64,000 bases of DNA, from assembly GCA_025062245.1 (NCBI GenBank), contig JANXAD010000003.1, positions 16,476 to 80,475 on the forward strand, in the 5' to 3' direction. Below the pieces are notes generated by a model. That model made no database searches. It saw nothing but the letters and a program-made list of their open reading frames with translations, and was not told the DNA's origin. Shown here piece by piece: positions 8,853 to 62,835 of the stretch (its first letter is position 1; each line of letters begins with the position of its first letter). The stretch comes from Thermodesulfobacteriaceae bacterium (GTDB taxonomy: Bacteria > Desulfobacterota > Thermodesulfobacteria > Thermodesulfobacteriales > Thermodesulfobacteriaceae). A program made the translations under genes and the position numbers.

Positions 8853-9074
8853 AACTTAGACTCCTTATGATTAATTTTTTACTTTTTAAATAATTTAATT
8901 TTAAAAAGATTTTTTTCAACTATTTTATTTTAAACACAAATAATACCATATTCTGGCAAAATTTCATGAGGAAGATTAAATTGGTGAAAAGCTAACCTTT
9001 TCCACCATTTTTGCCAAGAAATTAAAATAATTTCTACCTTCCCATTCTCTGTAAAGAACATCTAATAAGATCGA

Positions 9075-9237
9075 GACCTTGGCAAAATTTAATGGATTAA
9101 TAAAGATTTTAAGATAAAACTACGGAAAAAAATAAGGAGTTTCTCAAGTGTTAGGGCTTGGTGAGAAAGCTAAAAAGGGGCAAAGAAAAATGAGTAAACC
9201 TTTAGTTCCAACCTGCTTAAGGAGGTATTGGCATATA
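9075..9237 (+). repeat. Dispersed intergenic repeat family R, copy R1
   Basis: Shares TTTAAGATAAAACTAC, TCTCAAGTGTTAGGGCTTGGTGA, CCTTTAGTT and GGTATTGGCATATA with copies at 10784, 25646, 59232 (rc) and 62640 (rc); aligned by eye. Confidence 0.75.
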
Positions 9238-9242
9238 TTGCA

Positions 9243-10253
9243 CTAATCTAAACTATAGCCAAAATTAAGAAGAGTTTTTTCAGGATCTAAAGAAATTACT
9301 AATTCCCTAAGAAGTCTTCTTAGTTTTTCTCTATCTTGTTCTGCTTCAATCTCTCTCTTTAACACCTCAGGCACCCTTCCAAGCTTAACCTCTACCACCT
9401 CAAGCACCATCTCTTGAGCTTCTCTTAATAATCCCTCTTGTATCCCCTGCTGTAATCCCTTTTGTAATCCCTCCTGTAATCCCTGCTCATATTTTCTCTC
9501 TGAATAGGTCTTCAATTCAAACTCCATCCTCTCACCCCCTACCTCCCTTAATTTAATCCACACTTCCTCCTCGTCAAGCCCCTTCTCCTTAGACACTATC
9601 AACAAAAATAACTCCACATACCATCTCTCCCTCTCACTTAACTTCCCCACCACCTCCACAAACCTTACTACCCCCCTTAATAACTCCTCCAGAGGTCTAT
9701 CAAGACTCCTAAGAAGATAAAGATAGGCATACACCACACTATAAAGCTCAATCCTTTTCAAAAGCTCCTCTCGGTTAAGTCTCACCAAGTCAAGAAGTAA
9801 CACCCTGTAGTTTAGAAAATAAGACTTAATTTCAGGAGGTATCTCAAAAAGCTCCACAAACTCAATGGGGTAAAGCCAAGGCTTCTCTCCGTGATAAAAA
9901 ATAAAAGGCAACACAGGAATAGGTTTTGAGCCTTCTTTGAGGGCTTTTTCAAAAAGAGAGGAAATATAGTTTAGGATTTGAGCATAGACTGAGACATCTT
10001 GATAGGACTTGTGTTCAAGTAAAATGTAGAGGTGAAGAGGTTTTCCAAGGAGGGGAACTTGGACGATAATGTCAGGAAGAAGGCGCTTTTCTTTAGAGAG
10101 AGAAATCTGTTCTTCAGGGACGAAAACAAGTTGGGAGAGGTCTAAGTGAGAGAGAATCTCCTTGGGTAAGAACTCTTTAAGAAAGACTTTAAGATTTTCA
10201 GGGTCCTTAAGTATAGCCTTAGCATAAAGGTCGTAGGGCTTCGGTTCAGACAT
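9243..10253 (-). CDS. Rpn family recombination-promoting nuclease / putative transposase (PD-(D/E)XK, transposase_31-like)
   Basis: N-terminal PYDLYAKAIL, LPDIIVQV...LYILLEHKSYQD, PVLPFIFYHGEKPW; C-terminal (Q/E)EGL repeats followed by a small helical domain. Confidence 0.9.
   Translation of the reverse strand: MSEPKPYDLYAKAILKDPENLKVFLKEFLPKEILSHLDLSQLVFVPEEQISLSKEKRLLPDIIVQVPLLGKPLHLYILLEHKSYQDVSVYAQILNYISSLFEKALKEGSKPIPVLPFIFYHGEKPWLYPIEFVELFEIPPEIKSYFLNYRVLLLDLVRLNREELLKRIELYSVVYAYLYLLRSLDRPLEELLRGVVRFVEVVGKLSERERWYVELFLLIVSKEKGLDEEEVWIKLREVGGERMEFELKTYSERKYEQGLQEGLQKGLQQGIQEGLLREAQEMVLEVVEVKLGRVPEVLKREIEAEQDREKLRRLLRELVISLDPEKTLLNFGYSLD
9429..9486 (-). repeat. 12-bp tandem repeat (~5 units) coding EQGL-QEGL-QKGL-QQGI-QEGL inside the Rpn gene
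   Basis: Plus-strand units AATCCCTCCTGT / AATCCCTTTTGT / ATCCCCTGCTGT. Confidence 0.85.
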
Positions 10254-10783: not shown

Positions 10784-11006
10784 CTTTAAACAATTCAAAG
10801 CTCTAAAAAATTTAAGACAGAATTCCAGAAAAACCAAGAGAAGGGTATCTCAAGGTTTAGGACTTGGTGAGGAAGTGAAAAGGTAGTAAGAAAAGAGAGG
10901 TAAGACTTTAGTTAAAAACTTTTTAGGAAGTATTGAAATATAAAAAGAAGCAAGAGATTAAATTGGGAGGCAGATAGGAGATAGTAAAGAGAGAATCTTA
11001 GAAAGT
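10784..11006 (+). repeat. Dispersed intergenic repeat family R, copy R2
   Basis: TTTAAGACAGAATTCC...TCTCAAGGTTTAGGACTTGGTGA...CTTTAGTTAAAAACT...ATAGGAGATAGTAAAGAGAGA, colinear with the reverse complement of 59232-59485. Confidence 0.75.
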
Positions 11007-22820: not shown

Positions 22821-23600
22821 TTACCACTTAAGTCTTACTTTTACTTCTTTTTTAGCTAAGTATTCTTTAATTTCTTTTATGGTATACATTTCATAATGGA
22901 CCATGGAGGCAATAAGAGCAGCATCAGCTTTTGCTTGGGTTAGGACCTCATAGAGGTGTTCCGGAGTTCCTGCCCCTCCTGAGGCAATTACTGGAATGTT
23001 TACAGCTTCAGCTATCATTTGGGTAAGGTTTAATTCATAACCTTCTTTGGTTCCGTCAGCATCGATGGAATTTAGGCAAATTTCACCGGCTCCAAGATTT
23101 TCAGCCTCTTTAGCCCACCACAGGGCATCAATTCCCATAGGTTCCCTTCCCCCTTTAATCCAAACCTCATAACCTGAAGGAATTTTAGGAGAAGGTTCAA
23201 CCTTCTTGACATCCATTCCCAAAACTATACACTGAGAACCAAAGGCTTTAGCTCCTTCGTAAATGAGTTTAGGATTAAGAACTGCGGCAGTATTGATAGA
23301 AACCTTTTCTGCCCCTGCCAGTAAAACCTCTCTCATTTCTTCCAAACTTTTTATTCCCCCACCAACAGAAAAGGGAATAAAAATGCGCTCTGCAGTTTTT
23401 CTAACTACTTCTATCATAATTTTTCGATGTTCTGCGCTGGCTGTAATATCATAAAAGACAATTTCGTCTGCTCCTTCAAGATAATACTTTTCAGCCATTT
23501 CGACTGGGTCTCCTACTTCTACATTGTTTTTAAACTTAATTCCCTTGGTAGTCTTCCCATCCCTTACATCTAGACAAACGATAATTCTTTTACTTAACAT
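22821..23600 (-). CDS. hisF: Imidazole glycerol phosphate synthase cyclase subunit
   Basis: [49 protein letters not shown]. Confidence 0.97.
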
Positions 23601-23673: not shown

Positions 23674-24627
23674 AGGGGAGGAAAGGCTATGGGAAAACTT
23701 TTAGAAAAAATAGAACTTGGCAATTTAGAACTTAAAAACAGAACTATAAGGTCTGCCACTTGGGAAGGGATGTGTGATAAAGAGGGAAAACCTACGGAGA
23801 GATTAATTGAGCTTTATGAAGAATTGGCTCAAGGAGAAGTTGGTTTAATTATTACAGGTTATGCCTATGTTAGTCCAGAGGGGCAACAACTTCCGGGTAT
23901 GTTGGGACTTCACCAGGATGAAAATATAGAACCTCTTCAGAGGATGGTTGAAAGGGTAAAAGCTAAGGGAGGGGTTATAGCTGTATAACTTGGAAGACCT
24001 AAAAAGGGTGGTAGAAGACTTTGCTAAGGCTGCCGAAAGAGCTAAAAAAGCTGGCTTTGATGCTGTTCAACTTCACGGAGCTCACGGATATTTAATTAAT
24101 GAATTTTTGTCTCCTCTTACTAATCGAAGAGCTGATGAATATGGAGGAAACTTAGAGAATAGAGCCAGATTCTTAAAGGAAATTATAGAAGCTATAAGAG
24201 AGAGGGTAGGAGATGGATATCCCCTTTTTATAAAACTTAATGGAGATGATTTTTTAGAGGGTGGTTTTAATATAAGGGAGGCTGTTGAGGTTTCAAAATG
24301 GCTTGAGAGTTGGGGGATAGGAAGCCTATCATAAGGAGCTTTCTTTTGAGATTAAAAAGGCTGTTTTTAAAGTGCCTGTAGGTTTAGTGGGAGGTATCAG
24401 AAGTTTTGAAGTAGCAAGTGAACTTTTAGAGAAGGGATATGCGGATTTAATTTCTTTTTCAAGACCTTTTATTTGTGAGCCCCAATTGATTAGGAGGTGG
24501 AAAGAGGGGGACTTAAGGAAAGCTCAATGTATTTCCTGTAGTGAGTGTCTTTTGGCTGGAGTTAAGGAGGGAGGAATTTACTGTGTAGCCCGTAAAAAAG
24601 GAAAAATTTAAAAAAGGTTTAATTTCT
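23674..24627 (+). repeat. 954-bp direct repeat, copy 1 (covers the RBS and whole broken OYE gene)
   Basis: Colinear with 26075-27028 at offset 2401; I count about 10 substitutions. Confidence 0.95.
23689..24611 (+). pseudogene. NADH:flavin oxidoreductase / Old Yellow Enzyme, broken into three reading frames (copy 1)
   Basis: LKNRTIRSATWE, GLIITGYAYV; QLHGAHGYLINEFLSP..NRR.DEYGG..ENRARF; VPVGLVGGIRS..ADLISFSRPFICEP. TAA at 23986 and frame changes near 23990 and 24321. Confidence 0.88.
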
Positions 24628-24738
24628 AAAATCTTGGCCACTTTGTTTTCGATCAAGGAATAAAAGAGATTTTTTTGAGAATTAATGACAGGGATTTTTT
24701 TTCCTTTTAGCTAAACTTTTTTAAAAAGCAATAAAACT

Positions 24739-25149
24739 TTAAATTTTAATAATTCTTTCAGCCAGAGAAATTATATATTCTGTTCCCTCTATAGCCCATT
24801 TTGCTTCTTCTGCAGTATATTCTTCTGTAGGAATAAAATCTATATCTCCATAAAGGGATAGTTCTCTTTCCTTTCTTAAAGATTTTGAAATTTTAGACAT
24901 CCTTTTTAGCTCCTCTTCAGAAAATTCTGGAAACTTATCTTTATGGTGAAAGAAAAGGAAACTTACTTCATGGTATTTAGGTGGTTCAATGCCTCTTTGT
25001 CTGAGCATGGCTTTAGTGGTTAATTCAACGGCCTCTTGAGCCTCTCTTATTACATCAGAGTAAGCTTCTCTTTCGTATAAAAACTTTAACATTTCAAATC
25101 TTACCTTAGCTTTTTTCAGATAACTTTTAGCTAAATCTTCAAAAGTCAT
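24739..25149 (-). CDS. HEPN domain protein (toxin partner of an MNT-HEPN pair)
   Basis: YSDVIREAQEAVELTTKAML..GIEPPKYHEV and LRKERELSLYG; ATGA overlap with the upstream MNT gene. Confidence 0.88.
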   Translation of the reverse strand: MTFEDLAKSYLKKAKVRFEMLKFLYEREAYSDVIREAQEAVELTTKAMLRQRGIEPPKYHEVSFLFFHHKDKFPEFSEEELKRMSKISKSLRKERELSLYGDIDFIPTEEYTAEEAKWAIEGTEYIISLAERIIKI

Positions 25150-25637
25150 AATTTTATGGTTTCTCCTGGCTTAATATCAGGTTTTAAAACCCAATACCAT
25201 GCATTTCCTAACCAATAACGTTTAGCTCCCAAGCTTTTAAGTTTCTCTTTTAATTTCTCCAATTCCTTTTTAAAAAAGTCTTCTTTATCGTAAAGAATTT
25301 GAGCCTCTTCCACTAAATCTAAAAAAAGAGGACTTCCCATTTTTACTTCTTCAGGTGTTTTCAAAACAGGAGATATATAAGTATTTATACCAATCTTTTC
25401 CAGACTTTTAAGATACTCTTCTATTTTTTCTTCGATTTCCATAAATTCTGTGGTCCTTTTCAGTCTGCCCTTGGGAAGGTCTTTTACCACTATGAGAAGA
25501 TCTATATCTGAATCAAATCTTTGAGTTTCTCTGGCTACAGAGCCAAACAAAACTATAGAAATAAGACGCTCTTGGTAAAAACTCTTAATTTCTTTAACTA
25601 ATAGATTAATTAATTCTTGGTATTTTTCCTTTAACAT
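25146..25637 (-). CDS. Minimal nucleotidyltransferase (MNT) antitoxin
   Basis: IVLFGSVAR.....DSDIDLLIV (GS...DxD motif). Confidence 0.9.
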   Translation of the reverse strand: MLKEKYQELINLLVKEIKSFYQERLISIVLFGSVARETQRFDSDIDLLIVVKDLPKGRLKRTTEFMEIEEKIEEYLKSLEKIGINTYISPVLKTPEEVKMGSPLFLDLVEEAQILYDKEDFFKKELEKLKEKLKSLGAKRYWLGNAWYWVLKPDIKPGETIKL

Positions 25638-25645
25638 CTTTAAAA

Positions 25646-25710
25646 GACCTTGGCCAAACTTAATGGTTTAAAGAAGATTTTAAGATAGAATTACAGAAAA
25701 AACAAGGAGT
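25646..25710 (+). repeat. Dispersed intergenic repeat family R, truncated copy R3
   Basis: GACCTTGGCCAAACTTAATGGTTTAAAGAAGATTTTAAGATAGAATTACAGAAAAAACAAGGAG versus R1 GACCTTGGCAAAATTTAATGGATTAATAAAGATTTTAAGATAAAACTACGGAAAAAAATAAGGAG. Confidence 0.75.
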
Positions 25711-26074
25711 CAACTATTAGAAAAAGTTGGAATTAAAAATGTTAAGCCCGGCTAACCTTCTTACTTCTATGGAAGCAAGAAAATTTCTTTCTTTGGGAGA
25801 CCAATTTGAGTTTTGATTTGAGAAAAGTTCTTTTTATAGAGTTTAAGGAGTTTTTGGTTGTTAAGATAAGGAGATTAAAAAGAAAGGTCTCTTTTAAGTC
25901 AGATTTGTTATCTGTCAGAGGATTCCCTGAGAAGGATGGCAGGTTGATAGGATTTAAGAGTAGAGAGGAAATTAGGGAAACCTGTAGGGCTTTAGAGCTC
26001 AAGGAGGCAAGGGGTTCTTGTCCCTCTAATTTTGAAGTAAAACCTACCTTTATTGTAAACTAAAAATTGACAGA

Positions 26075-27028
26075 AGGGGAGGAAAGGCTATGGGAAAACT
26101 TTTAGAAAAAATAGAACTTGGCAATTTAGAACTTAAAAACAGAACTATAAGGTCTGCCACTTGGGAAGGGATGTGTGATAAAGAGGGAAAACCTACGGAG
26201 AGATTAATTGAGCTTTATGAAGAATTGGCTCAAGGAGAAGTTGGTTTAATTATTACAGGTTATGCCTATGTTAGTCCAGAAGGGCAACAACTTCCGGGCA
26301 TGTTGGGACTTCACCAGGATGAAAATATAGAATCTCTTCAGAGGATGGTTGAAAGGGTAAAAGCTAAGGGAGGAGTTATAGCTGTATAACTTGGAAGACC
26401 TAAAAAGGGTGGTAGAAGACTTTGCTAAGGCTGCCGAAAGAGCTAAAAAAGCTGGCTTTGATGCTGTTCAACTTCACGGAGCTCACGGATATTTAATTAA
26501 TGAATTTTTGTCTCCTCTTACTAATCGAAGAGCTGATGAATATGGAGGAAACTTAGAGAATAGAGCCAGATTCTTAAAGGAAATTATAGAAGCTATAAGA
26601 GAGAGGGTAGGAGATGGGTATCTCCTTTTTATAAAACTTAATGGAGATGATTTTTTGGAGGGTGGTTTTAATATAAGGGAGGCTGTTGAGGTTTCAAAAT
26701 GGCTTGAGAGTTGGGGGATAGGAAGCCTATCATAAGGAGCTTTCTTTTGAGATTAAAAAGGCTGTTTTTAAAGTGCCTGTAGGTTTAGTGGGAGGTATCA
26801 GAAGTTTTGAAGTAGCAAGTGAACTTTTAGAGAAGGGATATGCGGATTTAATTTCTTTTTCAAGACCTTTTATTTGTGAGCCCCAATTGATTAGGAGGTG
26901 GAAAGAGGGGGACTTAAGGAAAGCTCAATGTATTTCCTGTAGTGAGTGTCTTTTGGTTGGAGTTAAGGAGGGAGGAATTTACTGTGTAGCCCGTAAAAAA
27001 GGAAGAATTTAAAAAGGATTTAATTTCT
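26075..27028 (+). repeat. 954-bp direct repeat, copy 2
   Basis: About 99% identical to 23674-24627; its last ~20 bp overlap the 3' end of the 27009-28304 gene. Confidence 0.95.
26090..27012 (+). pseudogene. NADH:flavin oxidoreductase / Old Yellow Enzyme, broken into three frames (copy 2, same lesions as copy 1)
   Basis: Same stop and frame breaks as 23689-24611; four amino-acid differences (P/S, P/L, A/V, K/R). Confidence 0.88.
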
Positions 27029-28304
27029 CTGTAACTTTATCTTTTAATTCATAAACGGAACATCCGAGTTTGATGGCTGCCCTTTTTAAGTACTCTCTTA
27101 CTGAAGAACGGGAAATTCCTAAAATTTGTGCAACTTCTTTCAAACTTGTGTTTTGAATTAAATGATAAAAGAGAACCTCACTTTCTCTTAGGGTTAATTT
27201 TTTGGCTGAAGAATTTAAGGATTTATTGAGTTTAATTTGTAAAATTTCTGGAGTTAATTTTTCCTCTTTTTTTTCTGTCAAAATTTTTTCTTCTTTTTCC
27301 TTTATTTCAGTTTTATAAAAAAAGACAAAGGTTAAAAGAGCAACTAATGTTAAAAAACTTAGAATATGTTCTTTTTGGTAAAAAACGAGATAATGAAATA
27401 ACAAATGCCCCAAGAGGAGGGATAAGTTTATTAAAGCATAAAGAAGAGATAAAAATCTGATAGTTGTAAAGTTATTTATAAAAAAGTAAAGGGTTATAAA
27501 ATCCATTAAGCCTGAAGAGGAAAAAATAAAAAATTGAGCTATGAATAAAACCTTTTCATTTTCAAAGTGAAAAAAGGCTTTAGAGAAAGCAAGAAAAACT
27601 GATCCTAAAATAAATAATTCTTTGAAGAAGATTATTTTTTTCTTTTTTAAAAGAATACCTAAAAGGACTCCTAAACTATAAAAGAGAGTTAAAGAGCCAA
27701 GACTTAAAATGGATGGATAGGAGCTTTTTTCTATCCATAGATAAACTAAGGTTCCTGAAAAATAAAAAATAGATATACCTAAGAAAAGATAAACTAAATT
27801 TTTTAGAGGAAAGGGTAAAAAATCTTCTTCCTTTTTTGAAAAAGTCTTAAAGTTAGGGTTTAAAAAATAAAGAAAAAATAAATTGATTCCGATAAATAAA
27901 TAAACATAAACTTTAGAAAGAGGCCAAAAATTTAAAATTAAGGTTATCCAATTTCCTAAGATAAATCCCATATAAGGAAAAAAGGAATTTCCATCTTTTT
28001 TGAGGAAGGAAAGGGCTCTTAAAATTATCAGAGGAAAAAAAAGAGCTAAAAAAATTAAAATATAAAGTTTTAAAGAATCTATAATAAAAGGGAATAAGGC
28101 CGTTAATAAAGCACCTTTTAGAATAAAGAAGGGAAAAAAATTAAATTTTTCAAACCAACTAAACTTTAGAAAAATAATTGTATAGCCTATTAAGTGAAAG
28201 ATTAAAAACCAAGGAAACCAACTTTTTTCAGGTAAGAGAAAACCTTGGAGTGGAAAGGCTGTTAACCAAAGAGTAATGATAGATAAACTCAAAAATCCCT
28301 TCAT
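27009..28304 (-). CDS. Multi-pass (~11-12 TM, MFS-like) membrane protein with a C-terminal LuxR-type HTH
   Basis: About 330 aa of successive hydrophobic segments, a charged linker, then LTLRESEVLFYHLIQNTSLKEVAQILGISRSSVREYLKRAAIKLG. Confidence 0.78.
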   Translation of the reverse strand: MKGFLSLSIITLWLTAFPLQGFLLPEKSWFPWFLIFHLIGYTIIFLKFSWFEKFNFFPFFILKGALLTALFPFIIDSLKLYILIFLALFFPLIILRALSFLKKDGNSFFPYMGFILGNWITLILNFWPLSKVYVYLFIGINLFFLYFLNPNFKTFSKKEEDFLPFPLKNLVYLFLGISIFYFSGTLVYLWIEKSSYPSILSLGSLTLFYSLGVLLGILLKKKKIIFFKELFILGSVFLAFSKAFFHFENEKVLFIAQFFIFSSSGLMDFITLYFFINNFTTIRFLSLLYALINLSLLLGHLLFHYLVFYQKEHILSFLTLVALLTFVFFYKTEIKEKEEKILTEKKEEKLTPEILQIKLNKSLNSSAKKLTLRESEVLFYHLIQNTSLKEVAQILGISRSSVREYLKRAAIKLGCSVYELKDKVTEKLNPF

Positions 28305-28441
28305 TATTTATAAAATAATATAATATTTAAAATATTATCTTGCAAGACAATGTCACCACCTTTTGGTTACAAATAAAAAACAATTAGGTGACAAGAAATT
28401 TTTTAAGAATGTGTTATTCTAAAAATTATTAGGGAGGTGTG

Positions 28442-29152
28442 ATGGATAATAAAATAAAACTAAATTTACTTATTAAAATTAAAAACCAGCTTTTAGCTGA
28501 GGCTTTTCTTTTTTATCTTAGTAACTCCCAATCTCTTAAAAATAAATTTGAATTTCAAATTGATTTAAAGCCTCAAAATGAGAGAATTTATGAGATAGTA
28601 ATTTTTGATAAAAGTACTCTAAGGGAAAGTAAGCCTGAGGAAAGTAAGACTGAGGACTATTTTTCTTCCAAAAAACTTCTTTTAGACGACGGTTCTTTGG
28701 AAGAGGAGATCGTTTTTTTATTTTTATATTATAGACTTTCAGGAGTTCTTTCTTCAGATATTTCCTTATCTCTTTTTGGTAAATGTCTTGAAGTAGTGTT
28801 AAGGGGTGAAATTTGGGTGAGTAATCATTTAGTTAAAAAAATTTGCGAAAATTACGACAGTTTTTTTACTAAAAAGGGGCTTGAAAATTTAACCTTTAAG
28901 GAAAGGGAAGTTGTTAAGCTTATTTGTGAAGGACTTAGTAATAAGGAAATAGCCTTAAGACTTTTTATTTCAGAACAAACTGTTAAAACTCACTTAAACC
29001 ATATTTTTAAAAAAACCGGGGCTAAAAATCGAAATCAATTAATTAAAATGTATTTCTATGCCATAGGTAAAGAGAGGGTCCAGGTTAGTTCTGAAGATCA
29101 AATTCAAACCTCAAGACCTATCAAAAAGCTTTTAAAGCTTAAAAGAAGTTAA
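28442..29152 (+). CDS. csgD: CsgD-like LuxR/NarL-family regulator (degenerate receiver + HTH)
   Basis: VVLRGEIWVS..LV, LTFKEREVVKLICEGLSNKEIALRLFISEQTVKTHLNHIFKK; directly upstream of the curlin genes. ATG 28442 or GTG 28439 after AGGGAGG. Confidence 0.72.
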   Translation: MDNKIKLNLLIKIKNQLLAEAFLFYLSNSQSLKNKFEFQIDLKPQNERIYEIVIFDKSTLRESKPEESKTEDYFSSKKLLLDDGSLEEEIVFLFLYYRLSGVLSSDISLSLFGKCLEVVLRGEIWVSNHLVKKICENYDSFFTKKGLENLTFKEREVVKLICEGLSNKEIALRLFISEQTVKTHLNHIFKKTGAKNRNQLIKMYFYAIGKERVQVSSEDQIQTSRPIKKLLKLKRS

Positions 29153-29368
29153 TTTTAGGTTTTAAAACTTAAGTATTAGAAAATTTTATAACTTTTAAAT
29201 TAAATCTTTTAATTATTTCTTCTCTACCTTTTGGTTAATTTTAATTTTAAAAATACCTTTTAAACTCTCTTCTAAGATGAAAAAACTAAAGGAAGAGAAA
29301 AAGTTAAAAGAGGCTACAACCCCGTTGAGGGATGGTAGTAAAAAACAAAACCTTAGAGGAGGTGTGCT

Positions 29369-29845
29369 ATGTTTAAAAAAATTGCTTTAGGAGTAGCTTG
29401 TTTAGGTTTATTAGTTTCAACCTCAGTTTGGGCAAATGGTCCTGGTGGTGGCTTTGGAGGAGGTTGTGGAGGTGGAGATTTATGTGAAGTTAAAAGGGAT
29501 TTAGATATTCATTTGGGTTTGGATCTTAAACTTGATCTTGATGTTTGTGCTGATTTTGGAAATGCAAAGGATGATTATTACAGTGCTCAAGCTGTTATAC
29601 TTCAAGCAGGTGAAGGAAATGAAGCAACTATTACACAACAGGTAACTAATGCACAGGGAATCATAATTCAAGTTGGAGAGGATAATGTGGCTGAAACAAC
29701 TCAGAGTGGAGCTAAGGATTTTGCTATGACAATTCAAGTTGGTTGCTTAAATGAAGCTACAATTAAACAAGGACAAGCTGGAAATATGGCTGCAGTTATT
29801 GGACAGTATGGAAACTCAAATGTAGCTACGATAACTCAACCATAA
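29369..29845 (+). CDS. csgA: Curlin major-subunit candidate (CsgA-like)
   Basis: Sec signal ending VWA, Gly-rich N-terminus, then Q-x-G-x-x-N-x-A-x-x-x-Q repeats (QAGEGNEATITQ, QVGEDNVAETTQ, QVGCLNEATIKQ, QYGNSNVATITQ); strong SD; hairpin after the stop. Confidence 0.75.
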   Translation: MFKKIALGVACLGLLVSTSVWANGPGGGFGGGCGGGDLCEVKRDLDIHLGLDLKLDLDVCADFGNAKDDYYSAQAVILQAGEGNEATITQQVTNAQGIIIQVGEDNVAETTQSGAKDFAMTIQVGCLNEATIKQGQAGNMAAVIGQYGNSNVATITQP

Positions 29846-29855
29846 GAAATTGTGT

Positions 29856-29877
29856 TAGGAGGGGGAATCCCCTCCTA
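29856..29877 (+). terminator. 9-bp stem-loop between the two curlin genes (partial terminator or mRNA stabiliser)
   Basis: TAGGAGGGG-GAAT-CCCCTCCTA perfect stem; only a short T run follows. Confidence 0.7.
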
Positions 29878-29890
29878 TTAAGGAGGCTTT

Positions 29891-30427
29891 ATGAAATCCC
29901 ACTTTTTAAAGTTTATAGGTTTTTGTTTTTTAAATTTTTCCTTAACCTTTCCTCTTCAAGCTCAAATAAATTATCAAGTAGATGATGGCTTTCCTACAGA
30001 ATATTTAGAAAAAATTGTTAATTTAGCTACGGATATAAAAATTGATTTAGATATAGAAACTTCTTTAAATTTAGATATTCCCGTTAACGAGGTTAGTCAA
30101 GCAGTAATCGTCCAAATAGGAAATCAAAATCAAGCTTATCAAACTCAATATGGAATTTCTAATATAGCACTGATTTATCAAGAGGGAAATGAAAATTATG
30201 CCTTTCAAAAGCAAGAAGGAAATTATAATCAAGCTTATATTATTCAACAGGGTTTCAATAATTACGCTTATCAAGAACAGCTTTCAAATTATAATACAGC
30301 TATTGTTATTCAACTTGGTTCCAATAATCAAGCTTATCAGTATCAAGGACTTCACGGAGGGGTTGGTTATAAAAGCACTATTATTCAACAAGGAAACGGT
30401 AATGTGGCAACTATTTATCAATATTAG
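29891..30427 (+). CDS. csgB: Curlin minor/nucleator candidate (CsgB-like)
   Basis: Signal peptide ending LQA, then about nine curlin half-repeats (QIGNQNQAYQTQ, EGNENYAFQKQ, QGFNNYAYQEQ, LGSNNQAYQYQ, QGNGNVATIYQ). Confidence 0.75.
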   Translation: MKSHFLKFIGFCFLNFSLTFPLQAQINYQVDDGFPTEYLEKIVNLATDIKIDLDIETSLNLDIPVNEVSQAVIVQIGNQNQAYQTQYGISNIALIYQEGNENYAFQKQEGNYNQAYIIQQGFNNYAYQEQLSNYNTAIVIQLGSNNQAYQYQGLHGGVGYKSTIIQQGNGNVATIYQY

Positions 30428-30435
30428 GAGAAAAG

Positions 30436-30828
30436 ATGAAGTGGATGTTTTTAGGTTTTTTTCTTATTCTTTTAATTTATTCCCTCTCTATAATAGAGGG
30501 TAAAACTATTGAAGACTTTCCTGTAGAAATAAATTTGGCAGTAGAAAGAGAAAAGGGATTTTTGAAGGTTTATACCGATTGTCATAATCTTTCCTCCGAG
30601 AAAAGGGAATTTAAGATAATAATTAAAATTGAAAAAACTGGAAAAACAGGTAAATCAAGCATGTTACAGAGTAAAAAAGTTAAACTTTTACCTCAAGAAA
30701 GATCTAGACCTGTGATAGCCTTTTTAGGTGTAAAAAGAGAGGACTTTTACCTTATAGAGTGCCAAATTTTTGACGAAAAAAAGAGACTCGTTTTTTATAA
30801 AATTTTAACTTCTCAGGCTAATTCATGA
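30436..30828 (+). CDS. csgH: CsgH-like curli accessory chaperone
   Basis: Signal peptide, K-x-G-x-x-G-x-S-x-x-x-Q motif (KTGKTGKSSMLQ), two Cys; lies between the curlins and csgE. Confidence 0.6.
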   Translation: MKWMFLGFFLILLIYSLSIIEGKTIEDFPVEINLAVEREKGFLKVYTDCHNLSSEKREFKIIIKIEKTGKTGKSSMLQSKKVKLLPQERSRPVIAFLGVKREDFYLIECQIFDEKKRLVFYKILTSQANS

Positions 30829-31259
30829 AGTATGTATTTTTTTTAATTTTAAAATCTTTTTTAATTTTTTTATTTCTTTTTAAATTAGGATTTTCTCAAG
30901 AAGTAAGGGAGGATATTAAAAAGGAGGAGGCTAAAAAGGAACCTCTCCTTTTAGGCTTTATTTTAGATAAAACTAAGACCAAGATAGGAAGGGATTTTTA
31001 CGATGCTTTTGTGAACCTATGGGAATTTCCTTTAGGAACAGAAAATTTAAATATTATTATAGATGAACAAACAGACCCCCGCTTAGGAACTCAAATTTTT
31101 GTATATGTGGAAGACACTTTAGTTTATCATACGATCCTTAAACCTCGTTTAGAGGATATAGATGCTAAAGCTGAAGAGGCTATTCAAGTGGTTTTTAATT
31201 ACTTTATGAATTATCTTAAGTATCAAAAATACTTGGAAGAAGAATCAAAGTTTATGTAG
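30825..31259 (+). CDS. csgE: Curli assembly protein CsgE
   Basis: GFILDKTKTKIGRDFYDAF..W, IIIDEQ.DPRLGTQI, LKPR. Confidence 0.88.
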   Translation: MKYVFFLILKSFLIFLFLFKLGFSQEVREDIKKEEAKKEPLLLGFILDKTKTKIGRDFYDAFVNLWEFPLGTENLNIIIDEQTDPRLGTQIFVYVEDTLVYHTILKPRLEDIDAKAEEAIQVVFNYFMNYLKYQKYLEEESKFM

Positions 31260-31270
31260 GAGGGAAAGGT

Positions 31271-31702
31271 ATGAAGGATATTAAATTTGGGATAGCTTTT
31301 TTGATTTTGGTTTTTGGTTTTTATTCTCTATCTAAAGCTTCGGAGTTAACTTTTCAGTTCACCAATCCTTCTTTCGGAGGAAATCCTCTTTACAGTTCCT
31401 TTTATCTTCAAAGTGCTCAAATGCAAAACATTTTCACTAAAAAAGCCTCTTCTCTTTACAAACCCAAATCCCTTATTGAGCGTTTTACCGAAAGTTTTAC
31501 CAATCAACTTCTTTATAGGATGTCAGATTATATATTAGATCAGCTTTTTGGAGAGGATAATCAACTACCTGATAGACCTATGACCTATACTATAGGTAAC
31601 TTTAAAATAGAATACGACCCTACAGGAGAAAACTATGTTTTTACTGTAACCGACCTTTCTACAGGCCAAACTACTACCTTAGAAGTTCCCAAGGTTATGT
31701 AG
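31271..31702 (+). CDS. csgF: Curli assembly protein CsgF
   Basis: SELTFQFTNPSFGGNP....LQSAQMQN; C-terminal TG.TTTLEVP. Confidence 0.92.
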   Translation: MKDIKFGIAFLILVFGFYSLSKASELTFQFTNPSFGGNPLYSSFYLQSAQMQNIFTKKASSLYKPKSLIERFTESFTNQLLYRMSDYILDQLFGEDNQLPDRPMTYTIGNFKIEYDPTGENYVFTVTDLSTGQTTTLEVPKVM

Positions 31703-31735
31703 AAAAGTAGAAAAATTTTTAAAAAGGGGGATAGG

Positions 31736-32647
31736 ATGAAAAGTAAGATAAGATATGGAGGAATTTTTTTAGCTTTAGCCTTAGCTTTAGGAGGATGTGC
31801 TGGTCCTGTTTATTCTCCCTTTTATGAAAAGGCTATGAGTGGAACAGAGTATATAACCTCTGTTCATAAGGACTTAATAAGTTTACCTCCACCTGAAAAG
31901 CAAGTTCCAGTTGCAGTCTATAAATTTAGAGATCAAACAGGACAGTATAAACCGCCGACCACTTCTACTAATTTTTCAACAGCTGTGACTCAGGGAGCTA
32001 CAGCTATTCTTATTAAAGCCTTAGAGGATAGCGGTTGGTTTATACCTGTGGAAAGGGAAAATTTGGCTAATCTTCTTCAAGAAAGAAAAATCATTTTACA
32101 GATGGGGCAACAGTATGCGGATGAAAAATTAAAAGAAGCTACCAGTAAAATTTTACAACCTTTGATTTATGCAGGAGTTATTTTAGAGGGTGGAGTAATT
32201 GGTTACGATACTAATATTGTTTCCGGAGGATTTGGAGCTAAGTATTTTGGAGCCGGGGGTGCTGCTCAATATAGGGTTGACAGAGTTACGGTATACTTAA
32301 GAGCTGTTTCGGTAAAAAATGGAGCCATACTTAAAACGGTTCAAGCCACTAAAGTTATTCTTTCCCAACAGCTTTCAGCAGGATTTTTTAGGTTTGTGAG
32401 ACTTAATCGACTTCTGGAAATTGAAGCTGGAATTGCCTCCAATGAACCTGTAGAAATGGCAGTGCAAGAGGCTATCGAGAAAGCGGTTCACGATCTTATT
32501 ATAGAGGGTGTTAAAATTGGTATGTGGAAACCTAAGGAACCTGAAGTTTTTAAGGCTGTAGTGGAAAAATATGAAAGGGAAAGAAAGGAAGCTTTAAAAA
32601 GATTAAAACAAATGGGTGAAAGTTCTTTCTGGGGTGAAGTTTCTTAA
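31736..32647 (+). CDS. csgG: Curli secretion channel lipoprotein CsgG
   Basis: Lipobox LGGC, VAVYKFRDQTGQYKP, FSTAVTQGA..ILIKALEDSGWF.PVERE.L.NLLQER.I. Confidence 0.96.
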   Translation: MKSKIRYGGIFLALALALGGCAGPVYSPFYEKAMSGTEYITSVHKDLISLPPPEKQVPVAVYKFRDQTGQYKPPTTSTNFSTAVTQGATAILIKALEDSGWFIPVERENLANLLQERKIILQMGQQYADEKLKEATSKILQPLIYAGVILEGGVIGYDTNIVSGGFGAKYFGAGGAAQYRVDRVTVYLRAVSVKNGAILKTVQATKVILSQQLSAGFFRFVRLNRLLEIEAGIASNEPVEMAVQEAIEKAVHDLIIEGVKIGMWKPKEPEVFKAVVEKYERERKEALKRLKQMGESSFWGEVS

Positions 32648-33099
32648 AAAATTTTTTTTATTCTAAAGGTTTGAATAAAAATAAAATTCAAAAACTTCTT
32701 GCCGAAAAGAAGCTCGAAATACAAACAGAGAAATTATATCTCCTATTTAGATCACTCCCCATTTTTAAGATACTTTAAATTTTAAGATAAAAATAACTTT
32801 TACCGTAGATCAAACCATTTTTTAGTTTTGCTTTAAGTTGAAGTATTTTAATAAAATAAATTTTTTGTGGCTTCCGCTTGAAAATATTTTTAAGAAATTT
32901 TCCTTTACATCTTCAACTTTTTATACCTTCAGAAAGACTAAGAAACCTCAGCAAGAGTCCATAAGGTAAAAGAGAAAAAATTTTTATTTATAACTTTCCT
33001 TATTTTTCTGATAGTATGAACAACTTATGAAGCCTTTTTAATCAAGCCCTTTCCCTTAAAAAAGACTCAGAGATTAAGTATAACTAATCGTTGGAATTC

Positions 33100-33133: not shown

Positions 33134-33853
33134 ATGCATCGTGAAGCTCAGAAAAGTTATGTTATTCATAATTATTATGACCTTATTCGAGCTTTAAAGG
33201 AAAATCCTGAATGGTTAGAGGAATTAAGAAAGTTAATCTTAACTCATGATTTACTTGAGCTTCCCAAAAAATTTGAGGAATTTCTAGAAAAGGAATTTAG
33301 ACCTTTGAAAAGTGATGTAGAAACTTTAAAAAGTGATGTAGAGATTTTAAAAAGCGATGTAAAAACTTTGAAAAGTGATGTAGAAACTTTAAAAAGGGAT
33401 GTAGAGATTCTTAAAAGGGATGTGGGGGTTTTAAAAGTGGATGTAGCCAACCTTAAGGGAGACAATTTTGAAAGAAAGGTTAGAGAAAGGGCTCCTGCCT
33501 TTTTTGGAAAACATTTCAAAAAAGTGAAAGTTATTCCTATTGAAGAATGGGCAGATAAATTAGATGAGACTCAAGAAGCTGGAATAATTTCTTCTGAAGA
33601 AAGAAAGGAAGCCTTAAATTTAGACCTTCTAATTAGATGTAAAAGGTGGGAAGACACGGAGGAAATCCTTTTGGCAGTTGAGGCCTCTTACACCGCAGAT
33701 GATAAAGATGCAGTAAGGGCTCTGAAAAGAGCAGAGATTTTCTTTAAAGTTTATCAAATAAAAACCATTCCTGTGGTAATCGCTAAGGAACTCTCTCCTG
33801 TCTTAGAAGAGAAATATCCTGAAGTTCTTTTTATCAGAGTTGAGGCAGAATAA
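33134..33853 (+). CDS. Heptad-repeat coiled-coil protein with a C-terminal restriction-endonuclease-like domain (family common in thermophiles)
   Basis: DLIRALKENPEWLEELRKLIL..DLLELP N-terminus, LKSDVET-type heptads, C-terminal DLL...LAVEAS..AD..DA.RA..RA. Confidence 0.6.
   Translation: MHREAQKSYVIHNYYDLIRALKENPEWLEELRKLILTHDLLELPKKFEEFLEKEFRPLKSDVETLKSDVEILKSDVKTLKSDVETLKRDVEILKRDVGVLKVDVANLKGDNFERKVRERAPAFFGKHFKKVKVIPIEEWADKLDETQEAGIISSEERKEALNLDLLIRCKRWEDTEEILLAVEASYTADDKDAVRALKRAEIFFKVYQIKTIPVVIAKELSPVLEEKYPEVLFIRVEAE
33305..33463 (+). repeat. 21-bp tandem repeat (~7.5 units) coding LKSDVET/LKRDVEI heptads
   Basis: Units such as TTGAAAAGTGATGTAGAAACT and TTAAAAAGTGATGTAGAGATT. Confidence 0.92.
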
Positions 33854-59231: not shown

Positions 59232-59485
59232 ACTTCCTAAGCCTCTCTCTTTGCTATCTCCTATCTCCCCCTATTTAACCCCTACATCCACTCATCTCAA
59301 ACTCCTTAATCCCTTTCCTTATATGCCCATACCTCATAAACCAGTTTTTAACTAAAGGCGGACCTATTTTCCCTTGCTTCTTTTTCGCTTCTTCACCAAG
59401 CCCTAAACCCTTGAGAAACCTCTTTGTTTTTTTTTGTAATTTTATCTTAAAATCTTCTTTAAACCATTGAATTTTGTAAAGTTCT
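59232..59485 (-). repeat. Dispersed intergenic repeat family R, copy R4 (longest)
   Basis: Fills most of the tatD-aspS gap; the reverse complement aligns with R1, R2 and R3, and the plus strand aligns with 62640-62835. Confidence 0.8.
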
Positions 59486-59487
59486 TA

Positions 59488-60273
59488 TTAAATAGGAAAT
59501 TTGCTTTCTAAGTTAAAAAACTTTACCGTATTATAAAAAGTTTTTTCAACTACCTCCTCTAAGGAAGCACTTTTTAGTTGAGCTATTTTTTCAACGATAT
59601 AAATCAAAAAGGAAGGTTCATTTCTTCGTCCTCTTACTGGATGGGGTGCCAAAAAAGGGCAATCGGTTTCCACTAAAAGCCTATCTAAAGGTAAATATTT
59701 CACAGCCTCTCTTAATTCTAAGGCCTTATCAAAGGTTATTACTCCTGGAATAGAAATTAGACCTCCTAAATCGCAAATCCTCTTAGCCATGGTTTTATTA
59801 AAAGTATAACAGTGAAACAAAAATTTTAAATCAGAATAGTTTTTCAAAAAGTCTAAGACCGAGCTCCAAAAATTTTCATCTCCTCTTAAGTGAAGAACCA
59901 CAGGTTTATGATGTTTTTTAGCTAAGCTTAATTGATGTTCAAAGTGCTTAAGTTGTACCTCTTTGGGAGAATATTCCTTTACCCAATCCAGTCCAATTTC
60001 TCCTAAAGCACAGGCTAAACCTAAGTTTCTTTCTAAAAGTTGATAATCTTTATCCGTAAGACTTTTTACCTCGTGGGGATGGAAACCAATTACGGCACTT
60101 ATGAAATCTGGATAGGCTTCTTGCAATTCCAAAGCTTTTTGATTAGTTTTAGAATTAATTCCCACTACCAAGGTGTGCACCACTCCTTTTTCCTTGGCTC
60201 TTTTTATAACTTCTTCCAGATCTCTTTTAAAATCAGGAAAATTTAAATGGGAGTGACTGTCAATAAGTTTCAT
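59488..60273 (-). CDS. tatD: TatD family DNase
   Basis: LIDSHSHL, GFHPH, GEIGLD, LHLR, HCY, ETDCPFLAP..RG..NEP. Confidence 0.93.
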   Translation of the reverse strand: MKLIDSHSHLNFPDFKRDLEEVIKRAKEKGVVHTLVVGINSKTNQKALELQEAYPDFISAVIGFHPHEVKSLTDKDYQLLERNLGLACALGEIGLDWVKEYSPKEVQLKHFEHQLSLAKKHHKPVVLHLRGDENFWSSVLDFLKNYSDLKFLFHCYTFNKTMAKRICDLGGLISIPGVITFDKALELREAVKYLPLDRLLVETDCPFLAPHPVRGRRNEPSFLIYIVEKIAQLKSASLEEVVEKTFYNTVKFFNLESKFPI

Positions 60274-62639: not shown

Positions 62640-62835
62640 CTTTTAAAAGACCTTTTAAAAATTCGGTCTAATCTCACTACTAAGGCTCTTTCTTTTTCTT
62701 ATCCTATCTGACCCCAATTTAATCCCTCCATCCTTATCTCAAACCCCTTAATCCTTCTTCCTATAGGCCCAATACCTGATAAACCAGTTTTAACTAAAGG
62801 CGGACCCATTTTTTCCTGGCTTCTTTTTCACTTTT
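62640..62835 (-). repeat. Dispersed intergenic repeat family R, copy R5
   Basis: ATACCTGATAAACCAGTTTTAACTAAAGGCGGACCCATTTT (62773) versus ATACCTCATAAACCAGTTTTTAACTAAAGGCGGACCTATTTT (59330). Confidence 0.82.

What the first reader, a model, noticed from the sequence alone, without database searches (positions are those of the whole stretch)
23674..27028. MNT-HEPN toxin-antitoxin pair between 954-bp direct repeats made of a dead enzyme gene
Seen: 23674-24627 and 26075-27028 are about 99% identical (about 10 substitutions, so not an exact assembly copy) and enclose 1447 bp holding MNT-HEPN, a truncated R repeat and a gene relic. No transposase or integrase is present. Both copies carry the same inactivating lesions, so duplication came after pseudogenisation. 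Inference: a RecA-dependent unit that can excise or amplify as a 2401-bp segment, with the TA pair penalising loss. A pseudogene used as homology arms is an unusual way for a TA module to arrive or persist.
Basis: partly seen in the sequence, partly recalled or inferred. Interest (0 to 1): 0.65.

Follow-up and report, generated by a model that had tools for sequence, protein, structure and literature searches.

The report
Duplicated enzyme gene flanking toxin-antitoxin insert
A hot-spring bacterium carries two copies of one enzyme gene on either side of a small toxin-antitoxin-like insert; sister genomes still have a working first copy, so this looks like ordinary duplication, decay and copy-to-copy repair, not a new way of moving genes.

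Summary
Positions 23674-24627 and 26075-27028 are 954-bp direct repeats with 11 differences, all transitions. Each repeat is an Old Yellow Enzyme (OYE) gene killed by the same three lesions: a CAA>TAA stop, a 107-nt deletion and an 80-nt deletion. The 1447 bp between them hold an MNT gene, a HEPN gene and dispersed-repeat DNA, with no transposase.

The organism is a Thermodesulfobacteriaceae from hot springs.

- Near-identical sister assemblies and metagenome unitigs carry a full-length OYE as the hisF-side copy, next to the same MNT-HEPN pair. A roughly 97%-identical strain has a single intact OYE plus the pair and no duplication.
- In one metagenome the deleted and undeleted paths each sit at single-copy depth.
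- The distal copy has 4 private nonsynonymous changes and the proximal copy has none.

My best reading is that an intact-plus-dead duplication came first, and the lesions were later copied into the proximal gene by gene conversion. Mis-phasing of the window's assembly is the main rival. The close relatives of the pair checked (L087-L089) lie without OYE beside them. This is real but ordinary genome microevolution.

The parts
22821..23600 (-). hisF, the ancestral left neighbour. The hisF|OYE junction is the same as in relatives that have a single OYE.
   Evidence: 259-aa ORF. It is 94% identical to hisF of L003, and the synteny is conserved.
23674..24627 (+). OYE copy 1 (proximal), running from the ribosome-binding site to 16 nt past the stop. 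In this window it is dead: TAA at 23986-23988, a 107-nt deletion after 23992 and an 80-nt deletion after about 24322. In sister genomes this copy is full length.
   Evidence: for the window. for the full-length allele in L085, L001, L084 and X1.
24628..24738 (.). Spacer between the end of copy 1 (junction J2) and the HEPN stop codon. It is unique sequence at single-copy depth.
   Evidence: J2 is also present in L084 (X4), L001 and L002.
24739..25149 (-). HEPN-domain protein, 136 aa, of the HEPN-T (PF05168) type. It has no canonical Rx4-6H motif.
   Evidence: Pfam E 2.9e-18. Motif scan. HEPN-T variants are described in PMC3710099.
25146..25637 (-). Minimal nucleotidyltransferase (MNT), 163 aa, with a GSx10DxD motif. 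It lies upstream of HEPN and overlaps it by 4 nt.
   Evidence: Pfam PF01909 and PF18765. Motif. It scores 34.6 bits on the NCBIfam MntA model, below the 60-bit cutoff.
25645..25709 (+). The 5' module of the dispersed 'R' repeat. Other window copies are at 9074-9237, 10811-10920, 59320-59492 (minus strand) and 62788-62827. Metagenome depth here is roughly 50x that of the genome.
25710..26074 (.). Positions 25940-26074 ('E2') are multi-copy, and other copies end at 26063-26076, which is junction J3.
   Evidence: depths, loose ends, and an X3 contig that joins R5' to the E2 tail. Searches found no identifiable gene.
26075..27028 (+). OYE copy 2 (distal). It is a pseudogene in every assembly seen, with the same three lesions plus 4 private nonsynonymous changes: P82S, P214L, A352V and K368R.
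27009..28304 (-). Membrane-spanning LuxR/sigma70-region-4-type regulator, the ancestral right neighbour. Its last 20 nt lie inside the repeat, so copy 1 carries a 20-nt echo of it.

Best explanation
This is a gene-sized direct duplication of the OYE gene at its native locus, between hisF and the TM-LuxR gene. The two copies bracket a 1.45-kb mosaic insert. The insert consists of an MNT-HEPN two-gene module plus about 430 bp of dispersed intergenic repeat (R5' through E2).

The natural population holds at least three haplotypes:
1. One intact OYE plus the module (X4/X5).
2. An intact proximal OYE, the module, and a dead distal OYE (X1, GCA_033580415.1).
3. Dead plus dead (this window).

Most likely course of events (inferred). 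The distal copy was, or became, the redundant pseudogene, while the proximal copy stayed functional. In the window's lineage the stop codon and both deletions were then copied from the distal into the proximal copy by RecA-type gene conversion, in one or two tracts lying within 23974-24555.

Origin of the duplication (inferred). The event kept both outer junctions ancestral. That fits a single-crossover (Campbell-like) integration, or a one-sided homologous plus illegitimate join of DNA carrying OYE, HEPN-MNT and R/E2. The inner junction J3 falls at the end of a dispersed repeat.

The MNT-HEPN pair is a passenger in the spacer. It may disfavour pop-out of the spacer, but it does not use the pseudogene as a vehicle.
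For: What is shown:
- The repeat and the shared lesions.
- Both outer junctions match the single-copy relatives L003 and L083.
- X1 unitig depths. At deletion site 1 the deleted path is at 21.2 and the undeleted path at 21.8. At site 2 they are 17.9 and 21.6. Flanks are 19.6 and 18.5, the TA insert 24.3, and the shared node 36.7. That is one full-length and one deleted copy per genome.
- L085 links hisF to an OYE with CAA and the 107-nt segment. In L001 a stretch carrying extra sequence at the 80-nt deletion site leads into HEPN, and the dead copy lies next to TM-LuxR.
- L084 is one unbranched contig running hisF, intact 369-aa OYE, HEPN, MNT, R5'. Its OYE is under purifying selection (dN/dS 0.09 against L003).
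- Polarised differences. Copy 1 has 3 derived changes, all synonymous. Copy 2 has 6 derived coding changes, 4 of them nonsynonymous.
- Copy-specific SNPs lie 13 nt to the left of the stop codon (23973) and on both sides of each deletion. SNP alleles are shuffled between copies across assemblies. This is the pattern expected of patchy conversion.
- The window's copy 1 combines G23973, T23986 and the deletion junction within 20 nt, so reads with that combination must exist. L086 also links hisF and the copy-1 alleles G/T at 23880/23898 to the first deletion.
Against: - The window's own reads could not be examined. The G23973+TAA+deletion combination is absent from the Logan contigs of X1, X2, X3 and X5. 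The dead-plus-dead state therefore rests on the window's assembly, on L086 and on a low-coverage X3 contig.
- SNP phasing inside a 954-bp repeat is unreliable in short-read MAGs, so the 'mosaic' could come from the assembler.
- A single conversion tract does not fit position 24217. Two tracts, homoplasy or inter-strain recombination would be needed.
- The synonymous/nonsynonymous asymmetry rests on small numbers (0/3 against 4/6; roughly p = 0.12 by my own hand calculation, not by a tool).
- The mirror-image history fits the tract boundaries equally well: the dead gene duplicated first and copy 1 was later repaired by imported intact DNA.
- No contig crossing J3 was listed for X1.
Confidence: 0.55

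Rival explanations
1. The OYE gene died first. The dead gene was then duplicated around the MNT-HEPN insert, and the two pseudogene copies serve as RecA homology arms that let a 2401-bp unit excise, amplify or arrive, with the TA pair penalising loss. Intact proximal copies in sister genomes would then be later repairs by imported DNA.
For: Both window copies share all three lesions. No transposase is present. The tract-boundary argument is symmetric, since a repair tract fits as well as a conversion tract. In every assembly the distal copy is dead.
Against: - X4/X5 carry junction J2 (OYE|HEPN) beside a single intact OYE with no second copy.
- X4 differs from the window by 2-3%, while the two copies differ by 1.15%. 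J2 is therefore older than the copies' divergence, unless the copies evolve in concert.
- Copy 1 has no private nonsynonymous change and copy 2 has four.
- In L087-L089 the related MNT-HEPN pairs have no OYE beside them.
- X1 depths show no amplification of the insert.
Confidence: 0.15
2. The duplication is real, but the window's copy 1 is mis-assembled. The true genome would be intact-plus-dead, as in X1 and GCA_033580415.1, and the assembler walked the deleted path twice and left the 107-nt and 80-nt segments out.
For: - The repeat nodes (319, 331 and 306 bp) are longer than usual k-mers.
- Sister MAG contigs break exactly at these nodes.
- The window's copy-1 junction sequence is not found in X1, X2, X3 or X5.
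- X1 clearly has one full-length and one deleted copy.
Against: - An assembler cannot invent k-mers. G23973, T23986 and the deletion junction lie within 20 nt and differ from the copy-2 version (A23973).
- Polishing with reads from an intact copy would also have changed T23986 to C.
- L086 (hisF, G/T alleles, TAA, first deletion) and X3's unbranched 2381-nt contig (hisF through the first deletion to 24322) independently link hisF to a deleted copy.
Confidence: 0.2
3. The whole tandem structure is an artefact that stitches together two strain haplotypes, one with hisF-OYE-HEPN-MNT and one with OYE-TM-LuxR.
For: The samples are mixed-strain metagenomes. A strain with a single OYE plus the TA pair does exist (X4/X5). 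The link from MNT to the spacer passes through the multi-copy R5' module.
Against: - In X1 both flanks, the insert, the spacer contig and both the deleted and undeleted paths sit at the same roughly 20x depth. A two-strain mix would halve the strain-specific parts.
- Junction J3 occurs in an X2 unitig, in L001 and in the window.
- Three MAG assemblies (the window, L001, L002) join MNT, R5' and the spacer with unique sequence on both sides.
Confidence: 0.05

Closest known systems
Duplication-insertion (merodiploid) structures from single-crossover (Campbell-type) or homology-facilitated illegitimate recombination. My own knowledge; not checked in a paper here.
   Same: An insert lies between two direct copies of a chromosomal segment. 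Both outer junctions are the ancestral ones. No transposase and no short target-site duplication is present. The structure can in principle resolve by recombination between the repeats.
   Different: No circular or plasmid donor is known. One inner junction coincides with the end of a dispersed chromosomal repeat. The two copies are in different states (live and dead) in part of the population.
Pseudogene-to-gene conversion and concerted evolution of nearby paralogues. Examples: human CYP21A2/CYP21A1P, and bacterial silent-cassette systems such as pilS/pilE. My own knowledge.
   Same: A dead copy a few kb from a live copy donates its lesions through short conversion tracts, while flanking copy-specific SNPs survive. 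Converted and unconverted haplotypes coexist.
   Different: This would be the accidental loss of a dispensable metabolic gene in a thermophilic sulfate-reducer lineage, not a programmed variation system. Conversion is inferred here, not observed.
HEPN/MNT (HepT/MntA, type VII) toxin-antitoxin modules (PMC7641770, PMC11586414, PMC4621449; prediction in PMC2701414)
   Same: Two small overlapping genes with MNT upstream of HEPN. The MNT has the GSx10DxD nucleotidyltransferase motif. The module is found in varied genomic contexts in relatives.
   Different: The HEPN is of the PF05168 HEPN-T type and lacks Rx4-6H. It has R-x6-D plus an upstream conserved His, like the AF0298 group described in PMC3710099. 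The MNT scores below the NCBIfam MntA cutoff. No toxicity or AMPylation data exist for this subgroup as far as I found.
Chromosomal TA loci as stabilisers of neighbouring DNA. The concept is reviewed in PMC7167474, seen here only as a title and abstract opening in the search list; the stabilising role itself is stated from my own knowledge.
   Same: A TA-like pair sits in a segment that recombination between flanking repeats could delete, so it could select against that deletion.
   Different: This was not tested here. The HEPN may not be a toxin. A strain with the pair but no flanking repeats exists, so the pair does not depend on the repeats.

Membership tests
Type VII HepT/MntA (HEPN/MNT) toxin-antitoxin | Adjacent co-oriented MNT and HEPN genes forming one operon | tested here: met
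   MNT is at 25146-25637 and HEPN at 24739-25149, both on the minus strand, with a 4-nt overlap. The same pairing is kept in 84-40% identical relatives.
Type VII HepT/MntA (HEPN/MNT) toxin-antitoxin | MNT catalytic motif GSx10DxD | tested here: met
   GSVARETQRFDSDID starts at residue 32.
Type VII HepT/MntA (HEPN/MNT) toxin-antitoxin | HEPN RNase motif Rx4-6H | tested here: not met
   A regular-expression scan finds no Rx4-6H. By my own reading of the printed protein, the sequence has R-ELSLYG-D and an upstream PPKYH. This resembles the AF0298-like HEPN-T variants described in PMC3710099.
Type VII HepT/MntA (HEPN/MNT) toxin-antitoxin | Scores above the curated family models (NCBIfam MntA_antitoxin; a HepT-type model for the toxin) | tested here: not met
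   MntA_antitoxin scores 34.6 bits against a cutoff of 60. The HEPN protein matches no NCBIfam model, and its Pfam match is PF05168.
Type VII HepT/MntA (HEPN/MNT) toxin-antitoxin | The toxin arrests growth and the MNT neutralises it by AMPylation | not testable with these tools
   This needs expression and biochemical assays.
Old Yellow Enzyme / NADH:flavin oxidoreductase (PF00724), functional gene | Uninterrupted ORF covering the whole domain | tested here: not met
   The window copies cover profile positions 2-98, 145-247 and 293-338 only, with a stop codon and two frameshifting deletions. The feature is met in L084, L003 and L083, which have 369/368-aa ORFs.
Transposon, IS-bounded or integrase-borne mobile element | A transposase or integrase gene, terminal inverted repeats, and a short target-site duplication | tested here: not met
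   The 1447-bp insert has no such ORF. The flanking repeats are direct, 954 bp long and made of host gene sequence. The only inverted match is a weak AT-rich 47-mer.
Duplication-insertion by homologous or illegitimate recombination | Direct repeats equal to a chromosomal segment, with both outer junctions identical to the unduplicated ancestral locus | tested here: met
   Alignment to L003 shows that the hisF|copy 1 and copy 2|TM-LuxR junctions are ancestral. Homology ends exactly at J2 and J3, and the flanks beyond them show no significant similarity.
Duplication-insertion by homologous or illegitimate recombination | A donor molecule or circular intermediate, and a collapsed allele in the same population | not testable with these tools
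Inter-paralogue gene conversion | Shared derived lesions flanked by surviving copy-specific differences, plus unconverted haplotypes in the population | tested here: met
   G/A at 23973 lies 13 nt from the shared stop codon. Differences at 24217-24256 and 24556 flank the deletions. The full-length proximal copy is seen in X1, L085/L001 and L084.
Inter-paralogue gene conversion | Correct phasing of the variants on single molecules | tested here: inconclusive
   Alleles are shuffled among the assemblies. Short-read MAGs cannot phase across nodes longer than 300 bp.

The most novel reading that the evidence does not exclude
A natural thermophile population has been caught mid-process. A decaying pseudogene copy 2.4 kb away overwrites its functional paralogue with a stop codon and two deletions by short-tract gene conversion. 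All three stages coexist in hot-spring metagenomes: single live gene, live plus dead, and dead plus dead. The MNT-HEPN module in the spacer would disfavour the pop-out that could otherwise remove the pseudogene donor.
Probability: 0.35. Interest if true: 0.5.

Novelty: new member of a known kind. Interest (0 to 1): 0.3.

Why it matters
If the three haplotypes are real, the locus is a compact natural example of gene death by conversion from a neighbouring pseudogene in a bacterium. It could be followed in metagenome time series or in isolates. It is also a practical warning: identical lesions in two repeat copies of a MAG do not show the order of duplication and decay, and SNPs inside gene-sized repeats are not reliably phased. 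It does not reveal a new mobility mechanism for toxin-antitoxin modules.

Tried and rejected
1. Laying metagenome contigs on the sister contig L084, to measure the depth of the 107-nt and 80-nt segments directly. I read the depths from narrow windows of the window itself instead.
2. Looking for the window's own source run. The copy-1-specific stretch has only 3 sampled words and no run holds all three.
3. A JGI metagenome scan with the MNT protein. It found no near-identical locus, only 84% and lower relatives in other contexts.
4. Looking for the TM-LuxR gene of the X4 strain, to see what follows its insert. Only 6 homologues exist and none comes from that run. The 138-nt tail of L084 matches nothing held.
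5. Identifying the 'gene relic'. Pfam, tblastx against all loci, and an exhaustive HMMER search found only another copy of the same repeat.
6. Rfam on the locus and on the R repeats. Nothing credible came up.
7. Promoter and terminator scan. Counts did not exceed the shuffled controls.
8. Extended homology beyond the repeat ends, or between the flanks of the TA cassette. Not significant. A 9-of-10 direct match, ATCTTGGCCA (24632-24641) against ACCTTGGCCA (25647-25656), brackets HEPN-MNT, but the MNT-side copy is not conserved in X4. I treat it as unproven.
9. PDB sequence search. HEPN had no hit, and MNT hit only a generic nucleotidyltransferase.
Full report
**Observation**

Positions 23674-24627 and 26075-27028 align without gaps over 954 bp. 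They differ at 11 positions, all of them transitions. The start-to-start distance is 2401 bp and the spacer is 1447 bp.

Each copy matches Pfam Oxidored_FMN (the OYE family) in three ORF fragments, covering profile positions 2-98, 145-247 and 293-338 of 342. Alignment to an intact orthologue shows that both copies share three lesions: a CAA>TAA nonsense codon at 23986-23988, a 107-nt deletion after 23992 and an 80-nt deletion after about 24322. Both deletions shift the reading frame.

The repeat runs from the ribosome-binding site to 16 nt past the stop codon. It therefore also contains the last 20 nt of the convergent TM-LuxR gene.

The spacer encodes HEPN (24739-25149) and MNT (25146-25637) on the minus strand, overlapping by 4 nt. 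A 65-nt module of a dispersed repeat ('R5'') follows at 25645-25709, and then 365 bp with no identifiable gene. There is no transposase or integrase.

**Source and ancestral state**

The sequence occurs in hot-spring metagenomes. Its hisF is 94% identical to that of a Thermodesulfobacteriota MAG and about 90% identical to Thermodesulfobacterium and Caldimicrobium genomes.

Two related species have a single intact OYE directly between hisF and the TM-LuxR gene, followed by LuxR and a curli operon. In L003 the OYE is 369 aa, and in L083 it is 368 aa. The hisF|copy 1 and copy 2|TM-LuxR junctions of the window are these ancestral junctions. Beyond the repeat ends there is no significant similarity.

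**Is the tandem structure real?**

Only Logan contigs (k = 31) are available. In run X1 the depths are as follows:

| Part | Depth |
|---|---|
| hisF flank | 19.6 |
| TM-LuxR flank | 18.5 |
| HEPN-MNT contig | 24.3 |
| spacer contig | 22.2 |
| shared repeat node 23992-24322 | 36.7 |

A mixture of two strains would halve the strain-specific parts, so these depths argue for one genome.

Junction J3 (spacer|copy 2) is present in an exact 80-nt X2 unitig, in MAG contig L001 and in the window. J2 (copy 1|HEPN) is present in L001, L002, L084 and in X1-X3. I therefore accept the duplication as real.

**The key new fact: the proximal copy is full length in sister genomes**

- L085 comes from GCA_033580415.1 and is 99.8% identical to the window over 10.3 kb. 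It runs from hisF into an OYE that has CAA instead of TAA and contains the 107-nt segment.
- L001, from the same MAG, has a 76-nt stretch absent from the window at the site of the 80-nt deletion, in the copy that leads into HEPN. Its distal copy, next to TM-LuxR, has all three lesions.
- In X1 the deleted junction at site 1 (A at 23973) has depth 21.2, and the undeleted 186-nt path (G at 23973) has depth 21.8. At site 2 the values are 17.9 and 21.6. That is one full-length and one deleted copy per genome.
- L084 (X4/X5, about 97% identical) is a single unbranched 2645-nt contig: start of hisF, intact 369-aa OYE, HEPN, MNT, R5', then unrelated sequence. This strain has one live OYE next to the same module and no second copy. 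Its OYE shows dN/dS 0.09 against L003.

**Is the window's dead-plus-dead state real?**

The window's copy 1 combines G23973, T23986 and the deletion junction within 20 nt. This differs from copy 2, which has A23973. An assembler cannot create such k-mers, and polishing with reads from an intact copy would also have reverted T23986.

L086 (GCA_026415555.1) links hisF and the copy-1-only alleles G/T at 23880/23898 to TAA and the first deletion. A low-coverage X3 contig runs unbranched from hisF through the first deletion.

Against this, the exact combination is absent from the contigs of X1, X2, X3 and X5, and I could not reach the window's own reads. I give mis-assembly of copy 1 about 0.2.

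**Order of events**

Four points argue against that.

1. J2 exists beside a single intact OYE in X4/X5.
2. X4 differs from the window by 2-3% over the aligned stretches, whereas the two copies differ by 1.15%. So J2 is older than the apparent age of the copies, unless they evolve in concert.
3. Polarising the 11 differences with X4 and L003 gives 3 derived changes in copy 1, all synonymous. Copy 2 has 6 derived coding changes, 4 of them nonsynonymous (P82S, P214L, A352V, K368R), plus 2 differences after the stop codon. Copy 1 looks recently constrained and copy 2 long dead. The numbers are small.
4. Alleles at the 11 sites are shuffled between copies across assemblies.

The simplest history is that an intact-plus-dead structure arose first. 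The lesions then moved from copy 2 into copy 1 by conversion tracts lying within 23974-24216 and 24257-24555, or by one longer tract followed by later changes.

The mirror-image history is that both copies were dead first and copy 1 was later repaired by imported DNA. It fits the tract boundaries equally well but needs more steps to explain X4/X5. I give it 0.15.

**How the duplication formed (inference only)**

Both outer junctions are ancestral, so the event added one OYE copy plus the insert without disturbing the neighbours. Two routes would do this:

- Single-crossover integration of a circular OYE-HEPN-MNT-R/E2 molecule.
- Uptake of DNA from an X4-type strain (hisF, OYE, HEPN-MNT, R5'...), anchored by homology on the hisF side and joined illegitimately just upstream of the recipient's OYE ribosome-binding site.

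J3 coincides with the end of a multi-copy element. Depth at 25940-26074 is about 200, against about 20 for the genome, and other copies diverge at 26063-26076. One X3 contig joins R5' to the E2 tail directly. The 430 bp between MNT and copy 2 are therefore dispersed-repeat DNA, which may have supplied the joint.

**The MNT-HEPN pair**

- The MNT has the GSx10DxD motif.
- The HEPN is of the PF05168 'HEPN-T' type and has no Rx4-6H motif. By my own reading of the printed protein it has R-x6-D and an upstream conserved His. That arrangement is described for AF0298-like HEPN-T proteins, for which an alternative active site was proposed (PMC3710099).
- The MNT scores below the NCBIfam MntA cutoff, at 34.6 against 60 bits.
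- PDB sequence searches give nothing for HEPN.

It is a predicted toxin-antitoxin pair of the HEPN/MNT kind (PMC2701414, PMC7641770). It fails two membership criteria of the characterised type VII HepT/MntA family, and toxicity is untested.

Its closest relatives (84-73% identity) lie in other contexts. In L087 the pair sits between a folC-like and a topA-like gene. None of L087-L089 has OYE in the DNA fetched around the pair. The module evidently moves, and not by means of OYE arms.

**Excision and amplification**

Two 954-bp direct repeats are a substrate for RecA-dependent deletion, amplification and conversion. That much is established knowledge. Nothing here shows it happening apart from the inferred conversion. 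Insert depth is about 1.1-1.2 times that of the flanks in X1. Collapsed alleles cannot be detected with k = 31 contigs.

**Verdict**

The feature is real and was carefully observed, but it is ordinary: a gene-sized duplication with a toxin-antitoxin-like passenger, a decaying copy, and probable concerted evolution. The proposed 'pseudogene as vehicle' is not supported. The most interesting remaining possibility is a population caught between live-plus-dead and dead-plus-dead states through pseudogene-to-gene conversion.

Noticed in passing
window 9074-9237, 10811-10920, 25645-25709, 59320-59492 (minus strand), 62788-62827: A dispersed intergenic repeat family ('R', about 170 nt). Its first 65 nt reach metagenome depths of roughly 1000, against about 20 for the genome. 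Many copies share this 5' module and then diverge at about 25707-25709. It has no Rfam match.
   Followed up: partly
window 9243-10253 (minus strand): A 336-aa ORF with a sub-threshold match to the Rpn family of recombination-promoting nucleases / putative transposases (TIGR01784, 46.6 bits against a cutoff of 52.1). R-repeat copies in the same orientation lie on both sides of it (9074-9237 and 10811-10920).
   Followed up: partly
window 25940-26074: A second multi-copy element ('E2') with a terminator-like hairpin at 26006-26025 followed by a promoter-like TTGAAG-N18-TAAACT. Other copies in the metagenomes end at 26063-26076. One X3 contig joins the R5' module to the E2 tail with only 16 nt between, as if the two were ends of one short element.
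   Followed up: partly
window 24632-24641 and 25647-25656: A 9-of-10 direct match, ATCTTGGCCA against ACCTTGGCCA, brackets the HEPN-MNT cassette 1015 nt apart. It is GC-rich for this genome, but the MNT-side copy is not conserved in the X4 strain, so its significance is unclear.
   Followed up: partly
window 27009-32650: A curli-type operon in a Thermodesulfobacteriaceae: two curlin-repeat proteins plus CsgE, CsgF and CsgG. Two LuxR-type regulators precede it. The membrane-spanning one evolves fast (60% aa identity to L003, against 94% for hisF) and has only 6 homologues in 5.8 billion proteins.
   Followed up: partly
window 33288-33446: About 7.7 tandem copies of a 21-nt unit. If this stretch is translated it would give a heptad repeat, but no ORF or frame was examined there.
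   Followed up: no
L028:4550-5342: Another Thermodesulfobacteriaceae MAG has a different MNT-HEPN pair (30% and 48% aa identity) directly next to hisF, on the opposite side. Such pairs insert repeatedly around this locus, or are simply very common in these genomes.
   Followed up: no
window 23674-24627 against 26075-27028: All 11 differences between the two copies are transitions. Three alleles of the distal copy (26333 T, 26623 T, 26657 G) appear in none of the other sequences compared here (L001, L084-L086, L003, L083).
   Followed up: partly
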